Assembly: GCA_965153355.1 (NCBI GenBank)
Contig: OZ231126.1
Span: forward strand, 6,324,001 to 6,388,000
Direction: 5' to 3'
DNA length: 64,000 bases
DNA from: Flaccisagitta enflata
Taxonomy: Eukaryota
This document shows, piece after piece, positions 29,185 to 56,100 of this stretch (positions are counted from its first letter, which is position 1; each line of letters opens with the position of its first letter). Made by a program: the position numbers and the translations under genes. The notes under the pieces are model-generated. The model searched no databases. It was not told the DNA's origin and saw only the letters and a program-made list of their open reading frames with translations.

Positions 29185-32100
29185 TCACAATTTTGAGATT
29201 TCTCTGACTTCCGGTACGTAAGCCGGATTATGATTGCCGCCGCTGACTACTTCCGTCGGTGGTTGATGCTGCGAAGCGGCGCCGCTGCGCTGCTTCGCCG
29301 CCGCCACGTCGTCGACGGCGTGCTTCAGCTGAACCGCGACTCCGGGGTAATACAAGAGAGAGGCAAAGAAATCCTCCACGGGATTTCCGGTGATGCCAAG
29401 TTGGTCACGGGCCGAGATTCGAACGCTCGTCACCATCGCTGACATTCGGAAATAAAAGAAATTAAAACGAAACTAAATGTAATGACGCAAAAATGCCAGA
29501 AAGAGATTCACATATCATCACTTACCATCATAACTAGCGCCACGGCGTTACAACGATGCGTTAATATTGACACCAATAACAGAGCCAATAGCAAAAACAA
29601 AAGCCACAACAACAACCAAAACAACAATAGAAACAACAACAACGATAGTAACATTATGTAACAACAACGATAGTAACATTATGTAACAACAACGAAAATA
29701 ATATTAACAACAGCAACAACGAAAATAATACTAACAACAACTACAACGAAAACAATACTAACAACAACAACAACAACGAAAACAATACTAACAACAACAA
29801 CAAAAACAATACTAACAACAACAACAACAACAAAAACAATACTAACAACAACAACAACAACAACAACAACAACAACAACAACAAGAACAACAACAACAAC
29901 AAGAACAACAACAACAACAGAGAAATCACCAACAAAAGCAGTAACAACAAAAAAAAAAAAACCCAAATACACAACATCAGAGAGATCAACAACAAAGCTA
30001 AGCAGTAGAAACAAAACAACAACAATAACACAACCATAAAAACAACAACAATAGCTATTCAAACCCACACAACCACACTTACAAGCGTAGGCGATATAAG
30101 ATATCCACGCGAGCGCCCAGATTCCATCCACGGCCAAGACGCAAATGTGAAGAACGATGAAGAGAAGGAAAGAGAAGAGGAAGGGCAAAGAGTAAAGCCA
30201 CGACTTCGTCGACCCGGCGAATTTGGCGGCCACGCTGCCGAAGGTGAAAGGCGCCGCGAAGATGTTGAGGATGAACTCGCCCGTCAGTCGAGGGTTAAAT
30301 GTGGCGAAAGGATCGAGCAGACCGACGCGGAATTTGGGATCGTGGAACAAATCCAATTCGTACATCTCGTGCTGATAATGATGATCAAAAGGAAAGGGAA
30401 CGTGTGAACACAGAGAATGGCAAAAGTTGAAAAGTTGAAAAGATGAATGAATGCAACTGATTGAAGAAATGAATGAATAAAGCGGACAAAAATGATGTAT
30501 AATGCATGTGATGCAAAGTGCGATCATCGAACTGCGATGCATGAATAATGCAATTGTATGTATATAAAACAATTCAATAACAATGTATATACATAAAACA
30601 CTTTATTGTAAGAATGAAACATTCCAATGCATGAACAATTCAATGTAATGCATGTATTGCTTGTTACTGCATTTAATGCATGATCGGTGGAACATTAACC
30701 CTCTCTATACCCAAACTGAACGATATGGAAGAGGGCCTTGTGAGCCCTCACTGACTAGTTACTACGCGCATCACCCCTAGTTTTCCATTCAGCAAACCTA
30801 ACTTAGCAAATGTCCGTTCTGATCGAGTATCATGTAATTTAACCAAAAATTTCAAAGTGCTTAAATCTCTGTTTTGACTGCAGATTTGAAATCTGCAGAA
30901 AAAACTGTTAATTGAAAGTGCTTTCCTTTTTTCAATATTCCTTCGGGATCATAGTCAAAATGCATCTTAAAAATATAAAAAAAAGTAAGTTTGGTGATTT
31001 TACATATAAATAAAAGAGAAAGGTAAGTTTTTGCAATTTTTGACACTTATTTTGAGCGCCTTCTAGTTGGAATATTGAAAAAAGGAAAGCACTTTCAATT
31101 AACAGTTTTTTCTGGAGATTTCAAATCTGCAATCAAAACAGAGATTTAAGCACTTTGAAATTTTTGATTTCCCATAGGCTGAAGGAAAATTCAAGGTAAG
31201 GCGCGGACAGCAAGATGCAAATTTTTCAGACCAAAATTGATGCTATTGGAAGCCCAAGACAGCCCCACAACAAGAACTACTTGCAGAATTCTGATTTTAT
31301 TGCTTTTAGTCATTTAGGTACAAGCTAATGCTCACCCGAACGAGTCTGTAGAGTGAGACGCACATGAAGCAGACGATAATGGTGTAAGGCAAGCCCATGA
31401 TGATGGAGACTGTTTGTAAGGCGGTGAGACCTTTGTTGCCACCGGCTACGAGCAAAGCCGTCGCCGTAGCGCCTTCCGTAAAAGCCCAAAACACACGCTG
31501 AAATTCAAAATATCGTGAAAAAGAATAAATAACTGTGAATCTTTTATTCGCGCAACGTGAATTGTTTTGTTTTGAGCATTTTCTTTCGTGGAGAGACAAT
31601 CGGAGACCAAAGATCATGTCCTAATTGTCCGAATCTGACCTGATCTCATCTTCAACTGACCTAATTAGCCAGTGAGACTGGATCGCTTTTTGTGGAGAGA
31701 CAGTCGAATACCAAAGATCATATCCTGAAACTCCTGATTGTCCTTACCTGACCTGATTTCATCCTCAACTGACCTGATCCTTGGTAGATCTGGATCTTCA
31801 TTTGCAGAGAGACAATCAATAAAGAAAGGTCATGTCCTGATTGTCATCTAATATCTAACCTGAATAGCAGGTAGATCCTGATCTTCATTTACAGAGAGAC
31901 AATCGATGACAAAAGCTCATGTCCTGACCAAAGATCATGTCCTGATTGTTCTAATTTGACCTGAATTTGTCTTCAACTGACCTGAATAGCCGGTGGATCC
32001 GGATCTCCATTTGCAGAAAGACAATCGATGACCAAAGATCCCGAATCAGAAGAAGTCACAAAGTACAAAATGATTCCCATCAACGAAACCACGGATAAGA

Positions 32101-53100: not shown

Positions 53101-56100
53101 AGATAGGATTGTACAGACATTTTCCTCTTTTTGTACTTTTCCCCTCATGTTTCCTTTTGCCTTTCGTCTTTCTTTCTTTCTTTCTTTCTTTCTTTCTTTC
53201 TTTCTTTCTTTCTTTCTTTCTTTCTTTCTTTCTTTCTTTCTTTCTTTCTTTCTTCCTTCCTTTCTTCTTTCCTTCCTTCCTTCCTTCCTTTCTTTCAAGA
53301 AATTTCTTTCTCTTTTCTTTTTTTTTCTTTGAATAAGTATATCATTTTCCTCATCTTTCTTTCTATCGGTGTCGTTCATTTTCTTTCTTTATCTTTTAAG
53401 ATACGTTTATCTGATTTTTTTCATTTTCTTCCATTTTCTTCTTTTTTTCTTTCTTTCTAGTTTTTTTTGTCTCTCCTTCAAGCTGTACCCCTGACATCCT
53501 TTTGTCATCAGTATCCATATGAATGGTAGCGTGTTCTCAGGCATTGTGTAATCTGCAGTGTCTCTATTTTCTTTCTTTCTTTCTTTCTTTCTTTCTTTCT
53601 TTCTTTCTTTCTTTCTCTCTTTCTATTCTTGGCGCTTTGTCTGTCACCTGCGCTAGCGTGTTGTCGGACATAGTGCAATCCGCGGTCTTTCTTTCTCTCT
53701 TTCTCTCTTTCTCTCTTTCTTTCTTTCTTACTTTCTTTCTTTCTTTCTTTCTTTCTTTCTTTCTTTCTTTCTTTCTTTCTTTCTTTCTTGGCCTTTTGTC
53801 AGTCACCTGCGCCAACGTGTTGTCAGGCATCGTGTAATCCGCGGTGTATCTATTGGGTCCTGCGTAGTGCCAAACTGGTTCGGCGACTCCGTAAAAGAAG
53901 AGACCGACCGAGACGCCACACGAGAAGAACATGAAGAACCACGTGACGTCGTTGTATTCCGGCTGGTCGTCGGGTTTGCCCAGTTTGATGCTCGAATACT
54001 TGGAAAAGTAAAGCCACACGAAGAAAACGGCCCAAATGTCTTGAGAGCCGATGTACAACCAAGTGAAAATGTCCGTCACCCATGCCTGACAGGAGGACCG
54101 ATGAGATTCAGAGAAAGGGTGAAGGGCAGTTAGGAGGGAGGGGGAGAGAAAGAGAGAGAGAGAGAGAGAGAGAGAGACACACACACACACACACAGTGTC
54201 GCTCACTCAGCGTCACACACACAGTGTCACACACACAGAGTCACACACACAGTGTCACACACACAGTGTCAAACACACAGTGTTACACACACAGTGTCGC
54301 ACACAGAGTGTCACACACACAGTGTCACTCACACAGAGTCACACTCCTTACTTTAGCGACTTTGAAGTTCGCATCCGCTGTTTCCGGATCATGCAGACAA
54401 CCTCCAATAAACGCCCAAACAATGATGACGGCAAGCAAAGTGACATGCACAGTCACACACACACACACACACACACACACACACACACACACACACACAC
54501 ACACACACACACACACACACACACACACACACACACACACTTTCATACACACAGTGTCACACATGCACACACACACATAGTATCACATTCCTTACTTTGG
54601 CGACTTTGAAGTTTGCATCCGCTGTTTGGGTCACGATCGCAATGACAATCCGTGTCTTTTGTTTTTAAGTGTTTTTAAGCGGGTAATGTTTTAGGGTTAG
54701 GGGTAGGGTTAGGGGTGGGGTTAGGGTTAGGGATGGGGTGGGTTTTAGGGTTAGGGATAGAGCAGGGATCAGGGATAGGGTAAGGGTTAGGTGTGGGTTT
54801 GGTTCTATATGTTTAAGCTCGAGTAAGCTTGAATATTAGATTTGTCTTTGTGGGGAAAACAAGTGCACCGGATTGAATTACCTAACATGAACGCTGTTTC
54901 CGGATCATGCAGACATCCTCCAATAAACACCCAAACGATAATGACAGCAAGTCTCTCACACACACACACACACACACACACACACACATGTATATAAACA
55001 CACACGCAGTGTCACACACAGCGTCACACACACACACACACACACATATATTATCACACTCCTTACTTTTGCAACTTTGAAGTTTGCATCCGCTGTTTCC
55101 GGATCTTGCAGACTTTCTCCAATAAACGCCCAAACGATGATGACGGCGAGTGAAGTCACACACACACAAACACTCAGTGTCACACACACACACACACACA
55201 CACACACACACACACGCACACACACACACACACACACACACACACACACACACACACACACACACACACACACACACACACACACACACATACATACAGA
55301 CATACATACATACACACACACACACAGTGCCACACTGCTTACTCTGGCAACTTTGAAGTTTGCATCCGCTGTTTCCGGATCATGCAGACATCCTCCAATA
55401 AACATTCAAACAATGATGACAGCAAATAGAGTGATGCACAGTGACACACACACACACACACACACACACACACACACACACACACACACACACACACACA
55501 CACACACACACACACACACACAGTGTCACACTCCTTACTTTGGCGACTATGAAGTTCGCATCCGCTGTTTCTGGATCATGCAGACATCCTCCAATAAACA
55601 TTCAAACAATGATGACAGCGAATAGAGTGATGCGCAGTGTCACACACACACACATACACACACACACACACAAACACACACACACACACACACACACACA
55701 CACACACACACACACACACACTCCTTACTTTGGCGACTTTGAAGTTTGCATCCGCTGTTTCCGGATCATGTAGACATCCTCCAATAAACGCCCAAACGAT
55801 GATGACGGCGAGCAAAGTGACGATCGGGTTGAACCTCAAAGGGCCAATCCGTAACCAAAAACTCGTATCCTCAATCACCGGATCCACTCGCTGCAGCAAA
55901 GGGACCTCGTAATGATGCTGCTGCTGTTGTTGTTGTTGCTGTGGTTGCTGGAGTGCCATATTATGCTTGGTTGGCGAAAACTGAGATAACGGCGGCGCGT
56001 AGGGCGGTAGATTAGAAGGCGGTGAAGCTGCTGCTGCTGGCGGGAGATTGGCCGGCACTTCGTAAGGCCATCTGGCGGCGTCTGGGCCGGCGCTCCCTCG

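What the first reader, a model, noticed from the sequence alone, without database searches (positions are those of the whole stretch)
31585..55821. Exon-boundary echoes: four different BCCT splice junctions tandemly amplified into the adjacent intron
Seen in sequence: the exon 1 donor (5 extra copies), exon 2 donor (2), exon 4 acceptor (~8) and exon 10 donor (3-4) are each repeated as exon fragment plus splice site. The arrays always extend into the intron and leave the full exon intact. At exons 2, 4 and 10 divergence rises with distance from the real exon, suggesting repeated, polarised duplication. I saw nothing similar in the two neighbouring genes. Inference: either a recurrent microhomology or microsatellite slippage process focused on splice junctions, which grows introns and makes decoy splice sites, or a selected source of splice variants. 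Four independent events in one gene is hard to explain by chance.
Basis: partly seen in the sequence, partly recalled or inferred. Interest (0 to 1): 0.8.

Follow-up and report, generated by a model that had tools for sequence, protein, structure and literature searches.

The report
Splice-junction minisatellites in a transporter gene
Pieces of four exons, most with their splice signal, have been copied head-to-tail into the neighbouring introns of an intact betaine-type transporter gene; this is real, but it is a kind of repeat already described in lancelets ("mirages") and a few human genes, here unusually dense in one gene.

Summary
A minus-strand, 13-exon BCCT transporter gene (29185-56136, open frame of 906 residues, every intron GT-AG) carries tandem copies of exon edges in five of its 12 introns. 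These are the exon 1 donor (5 copies), the exon 2 donor (2 copies, the second without a donor), the exon 4 acceptor (7), the exon 10 donor (3-4), and a fifth, unreported partial copy of the exon 4 tail in intron 4.

"Exon intact, copies in the intron" follows from geometry plus selection. Only two relationships among copies are well supported, and neither places the true junction beside an echo. Polarity holds for exon 4, weakly for exon 10, and not for exons 1 and 2.

Use of the extra sites would give a premature stop in 15 of 16 cases. A polyA RNA run gave no reads on exons 1-6.

Whether junctions are hit more often than chance depends on the null model (P from 0.001 to 0.26).

The same structure is published as amphioxus "mirages" and as boundary-spanning minisatellites in human F7, IFI6 (6-16), CBS, LMNB2 and PDGF.

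New here: five arrays in one gene, and microsatellites within 31 nt of 9 of 12 donors.

Most likely these are tolerated by-products of tandem-repeat growth in short introns.

The parts
29185..56136 (-). BCCT-family transporter gene: 13 exons, 12 GT-AG introns, open frame of 906 residues
   Evidence: tblastn with relatives; splice-consistent model; Pfam BCCT on exon 2 (95 bits) and exon 5 (64 bits), cut-off 27
54330..55728 (-). Exon 1 donor array. Five echo copies at 55630-55515, 55434-55319, 55159-55055, 54951-54892 plus 54627-54570 (one copy, split), and 54444-54330. Each copy holds about 85-90 nt of exon tail, then GTAAGG, then (TG)n. The array fills 85% of intron 1.
   Evidence: Identity to the true junction is 78-87% with no gradient. 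Copies 1 and 2 are 92% alike and form a supported clade.
54628..54891 (.). Insertion of 264 nt that splits echo copy 4. It has an 8-nt target-site duplication and TTAGGG-like repeats. Its two ends match the ends of a 2.46-kb element at 22493-24951.
   Evidence: 8 nt of the query matched on both sides; 89% and 90% matches
53530..53806 (-). Exon 2 donor array. Echo 1 (53692-53618) holds about 40 nt of exon tail, then CAG|GTGAC, then (AAAG)n. Echo 2 (53568-53530) holds exon tail only; the donor is lost.
47866..48816 (-). Exon 4 acceptor array. Seven echoes of about 127 nt, each about 50 nt of intron tail plus AG plus about 77 nt of exon head. The acceptor-equivalent positions are 47992, 48119, 48248, 48380, 48493, 48620 and 48749. 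Six of 7 keep the AG.
   Evidence: Identity to the true unit is 91.5, 89.8, 86.3, 79.1, 88.4, 73.2 and 77.2%. The only supported split sets the two distal units apart from the rest.
47561..47617 (-). A partial second copy (about 57 nt) of exon 4 interior, lying in intron 4 behind (GATT)n. The unit is about 145 nt, with 1.4 copies. The donor is not copied.
   Evidence: (P0003 match). A 357-nt DNA contig of run X1 covers 47480-47836 with 2 differences.
31594..31981 (-). Exon 10 donor array. Echoes at 31918-31833, 31831-31732 and 31719-31605, plus a degenerate fourth. The unit is about 104 nt: about 59 nt of exon tail, then CAG|GT, then about 45 nt of intron. No microsatellite. The array fills 80% of intron 10.
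   Evidence: Identity to the true unit is 80.9, 73.6, 73.6 and 58.7%.
11800..12165 (-). Neighbouring IDH3B gene, intron 3. A direct repeat offset by 258 nt whose first copy starts at the exon 3 donor. About 8 nt of exon are shared, so this is a weak case.

Best explanation
These are boundary-spanning minisatellites, the kind called 'mirages' in amphioxus.

Origin. Five times in this gene a segment of about 100-200 nt that straddled an exon-intron junction was duplicated in tandem, by slippage or template switching or unequal exchange. This step is inferred.

Why the exon stays intact. A tandem copy lies beside its source, so one complete exon with its true splice site always remains at the exon-side end of the array. 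Every extra copy lies in the intron. Duplications that fall inside an exon or swallow a whole exon would break the frame and be lost.

Growth. Each array then behaved as an ordinary minisatellite. At least some growth came from copying of echo units, and older units sit at the far edge. In introns 1 and 2 the long (TG)n and (AAAG)n tracts inside the unit supply the homology.

Why so many in one gene. The gene's introns appear to have been short (cores of about 60-180 nt in 7 of 12) and have been inflated by repeats of all period lengths. Units of 100-200 nt could survive there only if they reached into an exon.

The extra splice sites. They are inferred to be silent or leaky decoys. By analogy, the most upstream donor wins (the human F7 scanning model), exon definition favours the true acceptor, and mis-spliced RNAs would carry premature stops. 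The gene seems weakly expressed, so the cost would be small.

What is shown: the anatomy, the intact gene, the relationships among copies, and the coding consequences. What is inferred: the mutational mechanism, neutrality, and silence of the decoy sites.
For: - Same-strand, adjacent, head-to-tail copies of exon edge plus splice signal plus intron.
- Intact gene with an open frame of 906 residues.
- At least one duplication copied an echo: exon 1 copies 1 and 2 are 92% alike and form a clade with support 96/97. In the exon 4 tree the only supported split sets the distal units c6/c7 apart from all others (98/99). There is no ladder-like order.
- The fifth echo is a fractional copy that stops inside the exon and lacks the donor, as expected of generic tandem duplication.
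- Fifteen of 16 pseudo-sites would give premature stops. Three of 7 exon 4 echoes carry in-frame stops.
- A transposon inserted into one echo, which marks it as old, tolerated DNA.
- Introns are rich in repeats: microsatellites make up 20-77% of 9 of 12 introns.
- The exon share of each unit (40-102 nt) exceeds its non-repeat intron share (12-50 nt). This is what is expected if units had to fit short introns.
- Published equivalents splice normally.
Against: - Under the null that fits a founding event best (random placement of the unit), 5 junction hits against 0.9-1.2 expected is a 4-5-fold excess (P 0.001-0.006).
- Within 36201-56200, the intronic arrays that do not touch exons lie in bins of repeated DNA (depth 2,500-300,000), while the echo arrays lie at single-copy depth (36-160) wherever no microsatellite confounds the bin. 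Locally generated arrays may therefore be even more concentrated at junctions.
- IDH3B, 8 kb away with similarly short introns, has no donor-side microsatellites (0 of 5 against 9 of 12, Fisher P=0.009). Short introns alone do not explain the pattern.
- Among exon 4 echoes, the exon-derived part is more alike (85.3%) than the intron-derived part (69.2%). Strict neutrality does not predict this. Gene conversion anchored on the selected exon could.
- Short ancestral introns are inferred, not observed.
- No RNA data show that the decoy sites are silent.
Confidence: 0.65

Rival explanations
1. A mutational hot spot at the 5' ends of introns. Some process tied to transcription or splicing (R-loops, stalled forks at donor-side repeats, breaks repaired by template switching) makes both microsatellites and junction-straddling duplications at exon-intron borders of this gene, and perhaps across the genome. 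On this reading the excess at junctions is real.
For: - The unit-placement null gives P=0.006 for the window and P=0.001 for the gene.
- Four of 5 echo events sit on the donor side.
- Nine of 12 donors, including those of the 5-kb and 13-kb introns, have a microsatellite within 31 nt. Background is 10% (P=2e-7). Only 1 of 12 acceptors does.
- Echo arrays lie in single-copy DNA, unlike the other intronic arrays in 36201-56200.
- Amphioxus authors also saw the phenomenon recur in several genes and called its origin unclear.
Against: - The array-placement null gives P=0.26 and P=0.067.
- The gene was selected after the fact from a very large scan.
- A selected exon copy decays about half as fast, so echo pairs stay detectable longer than intron-only pairs.
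- The donor bias is expected anyway, because about 40 nt at the acceptor (branch point and pyrimidine tract) are protected against only about 6 nt at the donor.
- One array is on the acceptor side.
- Two arrays (exon 4 acceptor, exon 10) contain no microsatellite.
- No mechanism was tested.
Confidence: 0.2
2. Functional echoes. The copies are kept because they provide alternative splice sites or isoforms, or act as decoy sites that tune splicing efficiency or transcript level through nonsense-mediated decay.
For: - Splice signals are well kept: 4 of 5 exon 1 pseudo-donors are identical to the true 9-mer and 6 of 7 exon 4 echoes keep the AG.
- One pseudo-donor (exon ending at 53648) would add 159 nt in frame.
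- The exon-derived part of the exon 4 echoes is better conserved than the intron-derived part.
- In human IFI6 and CBS the first pseudo-sites are used (Introduction of PMC1557585).
Against: - Fifteen of 16 alternative sites give premature stops.
- Echoes carry in-frame stops and show no clear excess of third-position variable sites (13, 10 and 7 sites for codon positions 3, 1 and 2).
- One echo is split by a transposon.
- The in-frame insert would be a low-complexity Lys/Glu/Arg run read from (AAAG)n.
- No RNA support.
Confidence: 0.05
3. Early stages of intron gain or intron sliding. An echo's exon part could become a real exon, or the repeats could become a new intron (the mirage model of Ebner et al. 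2010; duplication model of Rogers 1989).
For: Introns 1 and 10 consist 80-85% of echo DNA. Ebner et al. propose this route for amphioxus globins.
Against: The signature of duplication-born introns is absent. No intron starts with a copy of the downstream exon's head, and exons 2, 3, 5 and 11 have no copies at all. Echo units are not in frame. Whether the intron positions are ancestral could not be checked.
Confidence: 0.05
4. An assembly artefact: stacked haplotypes or mis-joined reads.
For: No contig listed spans a whole array. Run X1 may be the very sample the window was assembled from.
Against: - Copies differ by 8-27%, with substitutions shared among subsets of copies.
- Up to 8 units with regular spacing.
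- One copy is interrupted by a transposon with a clean 8-nt target duplication.
- A 357-nt contig reproduces the intron 4 echo with 2 differences.
- The gene frame is intact.
Confidence: 0.03

Closest known systems
'Mirage' minisatellites of amphioxus: Adh3 (Canestro et al. 2002), globins BflGb6 and BflGb9 (Ebner et al. 2010, PMC3087553), troponin C, PGBD5 (Pavelitz et al. 2013, PMC3902484)
   Same: - Tandem repeats whose unit spans an exon-intron boundary.
- Both 5' and 3' boundaries are affected.
- Units of 10-160 bp (150-160 bp in the globins, against 104-196 here).
- Many units keep the AG/GT signals.
- Units are 81-100% alike, with concerted evolution inside the array and the edge units left out.
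- Several genes, and several sites per locus, are affected.
- The mechanism is stated to be unclear (passages read).
   Different: - The organism here is probably not a cephalochordate. The best named IDH3B matches are molluscs at 82-86%, and no Branchiostoma protein is among the best 120.
- Five arrays sit in one gene.
- Two arrays have a microsatellite built into the unit.
- Copies are older (73-92% identity to the true unit).
- Normal splicing and allelic length variation, both shown in amphioxus, could not be tested here.
- I could not open Canestro 2002 or the additional files of Ebner et al.
Human minisatellites whose first unit spans an exon-intron boundary: F7 IVS7 (37 bp, 5-9 copies), IFI6 (6-16) intron 2, CBS IVS13, LMNB2, PDGF intron 4 (Borensztajn et al. 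2006, PMC1557585)
   Same: The true donor is followed by reiterated pseudo-donors of the same sequence. Only the most upstream site, or the first two or three, is used. Units reach 81-100 bp in PDGF and LMNB2 (abstract and Introduction read). This gives a tested rule, 5'-to-3' scanning, for why donor arrays can be harmless.
   Different: - The human cases are one array per gene, and most include only a few exon bases (4 bp in F7). Here 40-102 nt of exon are copied.
- An acceptor-side array is also present here.
- Splice-site choice was not tested here.
Intron creation by internal tandem duplication (Rogers 1989; Gao and Lynch 2009) and alternatively spliced introns from tandem arrays (Zhuo et al. 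2007)
   Same: Tandem duplication of a gene segment that carries splice signals reshapes the exon-intron structure.
   Different: In those models the duplicated exon sequence itself becomes the intron, so the intron's start copies the downstream exon's head. That signature is absent here. I saw these three papers only as entries in the reference list, and in one passage, of PMC3087553. Their content is recalled.

Membership tests
Boundary-spanning minisatellite ('mirage' / F7 IVS7 type) | Head-to-tail copies on the same strand, adjacent to their source | tested here: met
   TRF, self-blastn and exon-against-window blastn. Every echo is on the minus strand and lies in the intron next to its exon.
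Boundary-spanning minisatellite ('mirage' / F7 IVS7 type) | The unit holds an exon part, a splice signal and an intron part, and the terminal unit is the true junction | tested here: met
   Met for 4 of 5 arrays. In the fifth (intron 4), the first unit spans the donor but the partial second copy ends before it.
Boundary-spanning minisatellite ('mirage' / F7 IVS7 type) | Array turnover typical of minisatellites: units related to each other, edge units left out of homogenisation | tested here: met
   Exon 1 copies 1 and 2 form a clade (96/97). The distal exon 4 units c6 and c7 are split from c0-c5 (98/99).
Boundary-spanning minisatellite ('mirage' / F7 IVS7 type) | Regular splicing is retained; the pseudo-sites are silent or nearly so | tested here: inconclusive
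   In polyA RNA run X24 (about 6% of it read), 769 reads were laid, nearly all on repeats, with zero depth in every bin holding exons 1-6. Only the coding consequence could be computed: 15 of 16 pseudo-sites give a premature stop.
Boundary-spanning minisatellite ('mirage' / F7 IVS7 type) | Copy number varies between alleles or individuals | not testable with these tools
   No whole genome is held.
Intron born by tandem duplication of an AGGT-bearing exon segment | The intron's 5' end copies the downstream exon's head and its 3' end copies the upstream exon's tail | tested here: not met
   Exons 2, 3, 5 and 11, which lie downstream of the echo-bearing introns, have no copies anywhere in the window.
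Tandem exon duplication / mutually exclusive exons | Whole-exon copies with both splice sites and a preserved frame | tested here: not met
   Only exon fragments of 22-89 nt are copied. Unit lengths are not multiples of 3 and stops are present.
BCCT transporter (Pfam PF02028) - the host gene | The profile match passes the curated cut-off and the reading frame is complete | tested here: met
   Exon 2 scores 95.4 bits and exon 5 scores 64.3 bits against a cut-off of 27. The 13-exon frame is open for 906 residues. It is about 50% identical over about 800 residues to animal BCCT proteins.

The most novel reading that the evidence does not exclude
The arrays and the donor-side microsatellites are two products of one polar, junction-focused mutational process, for example transcription- or splicing-coupled instability at the 5' ends of introns. 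In this marine invertebrate that process would inflate introns and keep seeding decoy or new splice sites. If it is genome-wide, it would offer a tractable system for the unexplained origin of amphioxus 'mirages' and for intron growth and intron gain.
Probability: 0.15. Interest if true: 0.75.

Novelty: new member of a known kind. Interest (0 to 1): 0.4.

Why it matters
Boundary-spanning minisatellites are natural experiments in splice-site choice. They have also been proposed as raw material for new introns. So far they are documented, in the papers I could search, only in lancelets and in a handful of human genes, and their origin is called unclear.

This gene has five such arrays. One of them is on the acceptor side. 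It also has microsatellites beside 9 of 12 donors, in an animal that is probably not a chordate. That suggests the phenomenon is wider than thought.

It also gives a concrete locus at which to test three things. One is whether junctions are true hot spots or merely the only places in short introns where such duplications survive. The second is how an acceptor is chosen among eight near-identical candidates. The third is how much introns grow in this way: here copied exon-edge DNA makes up 11% of the gene.

If the neutral reading holds, the finding is an ordinary though neat example.

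Tried and rejected
- **Earlier notes of this scan.** Nothing on this genome, on look-alike stretches, or on the topic.
- **Related genomic loci.** The scan of metagenome contigs with the exon 2 peptide gave 29 loci. At identities of 40-72% they appear to be transcript contigs or distant relatives. I did not inspect them and no orthologous intron was obtained.
- **RNA evidence.** In polyA RNA run X24, laid over 36201-56200, 769 reads were laid out of about 12.2 million read, and 762 of them fit only in part. 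Depth was zero in all bins with exons 1-6. The small depth in bin 46206-46872 coincides with loose ends of TTCA-type repeat sequence at 46497. This gives no verdict on expression or on use of the echo sites.
- **Metatranscriptome run X9.** One 153-nt contig lies on exon 1 at depth 3. It cannot be told from DNA carry-over.
- **Organism.** The BCCT protein is about 50% identical to copepod, nemertean and ctenophore proteins alike, so it gives no placement. The IDH3B exon points loosely to lophotrochozoans or molluscs. I left it unnamed.
- **Rejected readings.**
  - Dispersed repeat family: the echo arrays sit at single-copy depth.
  - Target-site duplications of introner-type elements: the duplicated exon parts are 40-102 nt, which is far too long.
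  - Mutually exclusive exons and Rogers-type intron birth: see the membership test.
- **Tree-based polarity.** The trees are nearly unresolved, with one supported split each.
- **Paper not held.** Canestro et al. 2002 could not be opened.
- **Pfam on the full spliced protein.** It could not be run; single exons were scanned by reference instead.

Full report
**What is there**

The flagged span is one gene on the minus strand. tblastn with animal BCCT proteins and a splice-consistent model give 13 exons from 56136 to 29185. All 12 introns are GT-AG and the frame is open for 906 residues. Translations of exons 2 and 5 pass Pfam's BCCT cut-off. The protein is about 50% identical over about 800 residues to copepod, nemertean and ctenophore BCCT proteins.

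**The echoes are real**

Blastn of each exon against the whole window finds extra copies for 4 of 13 exons. All lie on the same strand, and all lie in the intron next to the copied edge.

- Exon 1 tail: 5 copies, in 6 pieces (E 1e-12 to 1e-34).
- Exon 2 tail: 2 copies.
- Exon 4 head: 7 copies.
- Exon 10 tail: 3 copies, plus a degenerate fourth seen in the alignment.

Reading the sequence shows what each unit holds.

| Array | Unit content |
|---|---|
| Exon 1 donor | about 85-90 nt of exon tail, GTAAGG, then (TG)n |
| Exon 2 donor | about 40 nt of exon tail, CAG\|GTGAC, then (AAAG)n |
| Exon 4 acceptor | about 50 nt of intron tail with pyrimidine tract and AG, then about 77 nt of exon head (period about 127; TRF) |
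| Exon 10 donor | about 59 nt of exon tail, CAG\|GT, then about 45 nt of intron (period about 104) |

About 57 nt from the interior of exon 4 recur in intron 4, behind a (GATT)n tract. This is the partial second copy of a unit of about 145 nt, and it does not reach the donor.

Echo DNA fills 85% of intron 1, 80% of intron 10, and 11% of the whole gene span.

**Not an artefact, and not a dispersed repeat**

- Copies differ from the true junction by 8-27%, and subsets of copies share substitutions.
- One exon 1 echo is split by a 264-nt insertion with an 8-nt target duplication. The two ends of the insertion match the ends of a 2.46-kb element at 22493-24951.
- In DNA contigs of run X1, the echo bins without long microsatellites sit at single-copy depth (36-160). 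Within 36201-56200, the arrays at 37.5-38.8 kb and 49.7-50.1 kb lie in bins of depth 160,000-560,000, and those at 39.0-39.4 kb, 42.4-42.9 kb and 51.8-52.2 kb in bins of about 2,500-4,000.
- Copy numbers themselves remain unconfirmed.

**How the arrays grew**

The rule "always into the intron, exon intact" needs no special process. A tandem copy of a segment that straddles a junction necessarily leaves one complete exon at the array's end, and duplications that break the frame would be removed by selection.

The trees are poorly resolved.

- In the exon 1 array the only supported clade is echo 1 plus echo 2 (96/97; 92% identity).
- In the exon 4 array the only supported split sets the two distal units apart from the other six, including the true junction (98/99).

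So at least one duplication copied an echo rather than the true junction. Whether the junction was copied once or several times per array is not resolved.

Polarity is as follows.

| Array | Identity to the true unit, nearest to farthest | Test |
|---|---|---|
| Exon 4 | 91.5, 89.8, 86.3, 79.1, 88.4, 73.2, 77.2% | Spearman -0.86, P=0.014 |
| Exon 10 | 80.9, 73.6, 73.6, 58.7% | P=0.05, n=4 |
| Exon 1 | no decline | rho +0.3 |
| Exon 2 | undecidable | 2 copies only |

This is the pattern Ebner et al. describe for amphioxus arrays: homogenisation inside the array, with the edge units left out.

**Would the extra sites matter?**

Sixteen pseudo-sites were modelled: 5 at exon 1, 1 at exon 2, 4 at exon 10, and 6 at exon 4. 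Fifteen would give a premature stop. One, the exon 2 pseudo-donor with the exon ending at 53648, would add 159 nt in frame, read from (AAAG)n as a Lys/Glu/Arg-rich run.

Three of 7 exon 4 echoes carry in-frame stops. Variable sites show no clear bias toward third codon positions (13, 10 and 7 for positions 3, 1 and 2). Nothing therefore points to selected isoforms.

RNA evidence is lacking. The polyA run from the same study gave zero depth on exons 1-6 in the roughly 6% of reads sampled. Expression and splice-site use are therefore untested. Exon 10's array was outside the 20-kb stretch that was laid.

**Is the junction hit more often than chance?**

After masking repeats with periods up to 12, the window holds 20 local direct-repeat arrays, and 5 of them include BCCT exon sequence. 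The answer depends on the null model.

| Null model | Region | Expected | P (5 or more) |
|---|---|---|---|
| Each array's unit placed at random among viable positions | whole window | 1.24 | 0.006 |
| Same | BCCT gene (9 arrays) | 0.93 | 0.001 |
| Whole arrays placed at random | whole window | 3.5 | 0.26 |
| Same | BCCT gene | 2.5 | 0.067 |

The first null ignores growth after the founding event, present-day introns swollen by transposons, and the slower decay of a pair in which one member is under selection. The second lets arrays swallow exons. The gene was also singled out after the fact from a very large scan. The excess is suggestive but not established. It needs the genome, which is not held.

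**A second pattern: microsatellites beside donors**

Nine of 12 BCCT donors have a microsatellite (at least 20 nt, period up to 6) within 31 nt, including the donors of the 5-kb and 13-kb introns. Background is 10% (P=2e-7). Only 1 of 12 acceptors does (Fisher P=0.003). In the neighbouring IDH3B gene, 0 of 5 donors do (Fisher P=0.009).

With microsatellites and echoes subtracted, 7 of 12 introns shrink to about 60-180 nt.

The simplest reading is that these introns were short. The acceptor side keeps about 40 nt protected for the branch point and pyrimidine tract, whereas the donor side keeps only about 6 nt. Repeats of every period therefore arose next to the donor, and units of 100-200 nt could survive only by reaching into an exon. 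This fits the units: they hold more exon (40-102 nt) than non-repeat intron (12-50 nt).

This reading does not explain why IDH3B is spared. Weaker selection on a weakly expressed gene is a possible reason, but that is inference. A real donor-side instability remains open; I give it about 0.15-0.2.

**Neighbouring genes**

IDH3B (6 exons, 21849-10291) has one direct repeat, offset by 258 nt, whose first copy begins at the exon 3 donor. It shares only about 8 nt of exon, so it is a weak case.

**What is known**

The structure is published.

- Ebner et al. [quoted passage not shown] Units are 150-160 bp, both 5' and 3' boundaries are affected, splicing is unaffected, and the origin is called unclear. 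They cite Adh3 (Canestro et al. 2002, which I could not open), retinol dehydrogenase and presenilin.
- Pavelitz et al. 2013 (PMC3902484; one passage read) add PGBD5 and troponin C.
- Borensztajn et al. 2006 (PMC1557585; abstract and Introduction read) list human genes with a minisatellite whose first unit spans an exon-intron boundary: F7, IFI6 (6-16), CBS, LMNB2 and PDGF. For F7 they show that the most upstream donor is chosen by 5'-to-3' scanning.

My searches found no genome-wide study and no report outside lancelets and humans in the held library. That is not proof that none exists.

The organism here is unnamed. For an IDH3B exon, the best named matches are molluscs at 82-86%, and no lancelet protein is among the best 120. 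It is probably not a cephalochordate.

**Verdict**

The claimed focus on junctions is unproven, and the splice-variant idea is unsupported.

This is a new member of a known kind. It is notable for five arrays in one gene, for an eight-unit acceptor-side array, and for the microsatellites beside the donors.

Noticed in passing
window 29185-56136, first 3-31 nt of introns 1-6, 8, 9 and 12 (minus strand): Nine of 12 BCCT donors are followed within 31 nt by a microsatellite. The motifs differ: (TG)n, (AAAG)n, (CA)n, (GATT)n, (GGT)n, (GTT)n three times, and (GAAT)n. Background is 10% (P=2e-7). Only 1 of 12 acceptors and 0 of 5 IDH3B donors show this.
   Followed up: partly
window 11800-12165 (minus), IDH3B intron 3: A direct repeat offset by 258 nt whose first copy begins at the exon 3 donor. 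It shares only about 8 nt of exon, so it is a weak junction echo in the neighbouring gene.
   Followed up: partly
window 54628-54891 and 22493-24951: A 264-nt insertion with an 8-nt target duplication and TTAGGG-like repeats splits one exon 1 echo. Its two ends match (89-90%) the ends of a 2.46-kb element that carries internal 166-nt and 19-nt tandem arrays. It looks like a short derivative of a transposon family.
   Followed up: partly
window 44295-45575 (+), inside BCCT intron 6: An intron-less open frame of about 427 residues on the opposite strand, with two matched stretches to the CD20-like family (Pfam PF04103, E 2.4e-10). The polyA RNA sample gave next to no depth on it (0 to 0.03).
   Followed up: partly
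window 37535-38868, 39536-40869, 49541-51541: Very abundant repeats. Summed contig depth is 1e5-1e6 against about 100-400 for unique DNA. They include 65-nt satellite arrays (37555-37817, 38433-38824) and elements with (GTCC)n. Nearly all RNA reads that were laid fall here, and they match only in part.
   Followed up: no
window 47866-48816 (minus): Among the 7 exon 4 echoes, the exon-derived part is 85.3% alike but the intron-derived part only 69.2% (chi-square P about 1e-22). Possible causes are gene conversion anchored on the selected exon, or poorer alignment of the AT-rich part. Not resolved.
   Followed up: partly
window 53648-53806 (minus): Use of the exon 2 pseudo-donor would add 159 nt in frame, a Lys/Glu/Arg-rich run read from (AAAG)n. 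It is the only one of 16 pseudo-sites that keeps the frame. There is no RNA evidence.
   Followed up: partly
window 29185-30371 (minus), exons 12-13: The C-terminal exons align to the C-terminal extension of relatives whose records carry PLAC8 (PF04749) together with BCCT. Whether this gene's tail is a PLAC8 domain was not tested.
   Followed up: no
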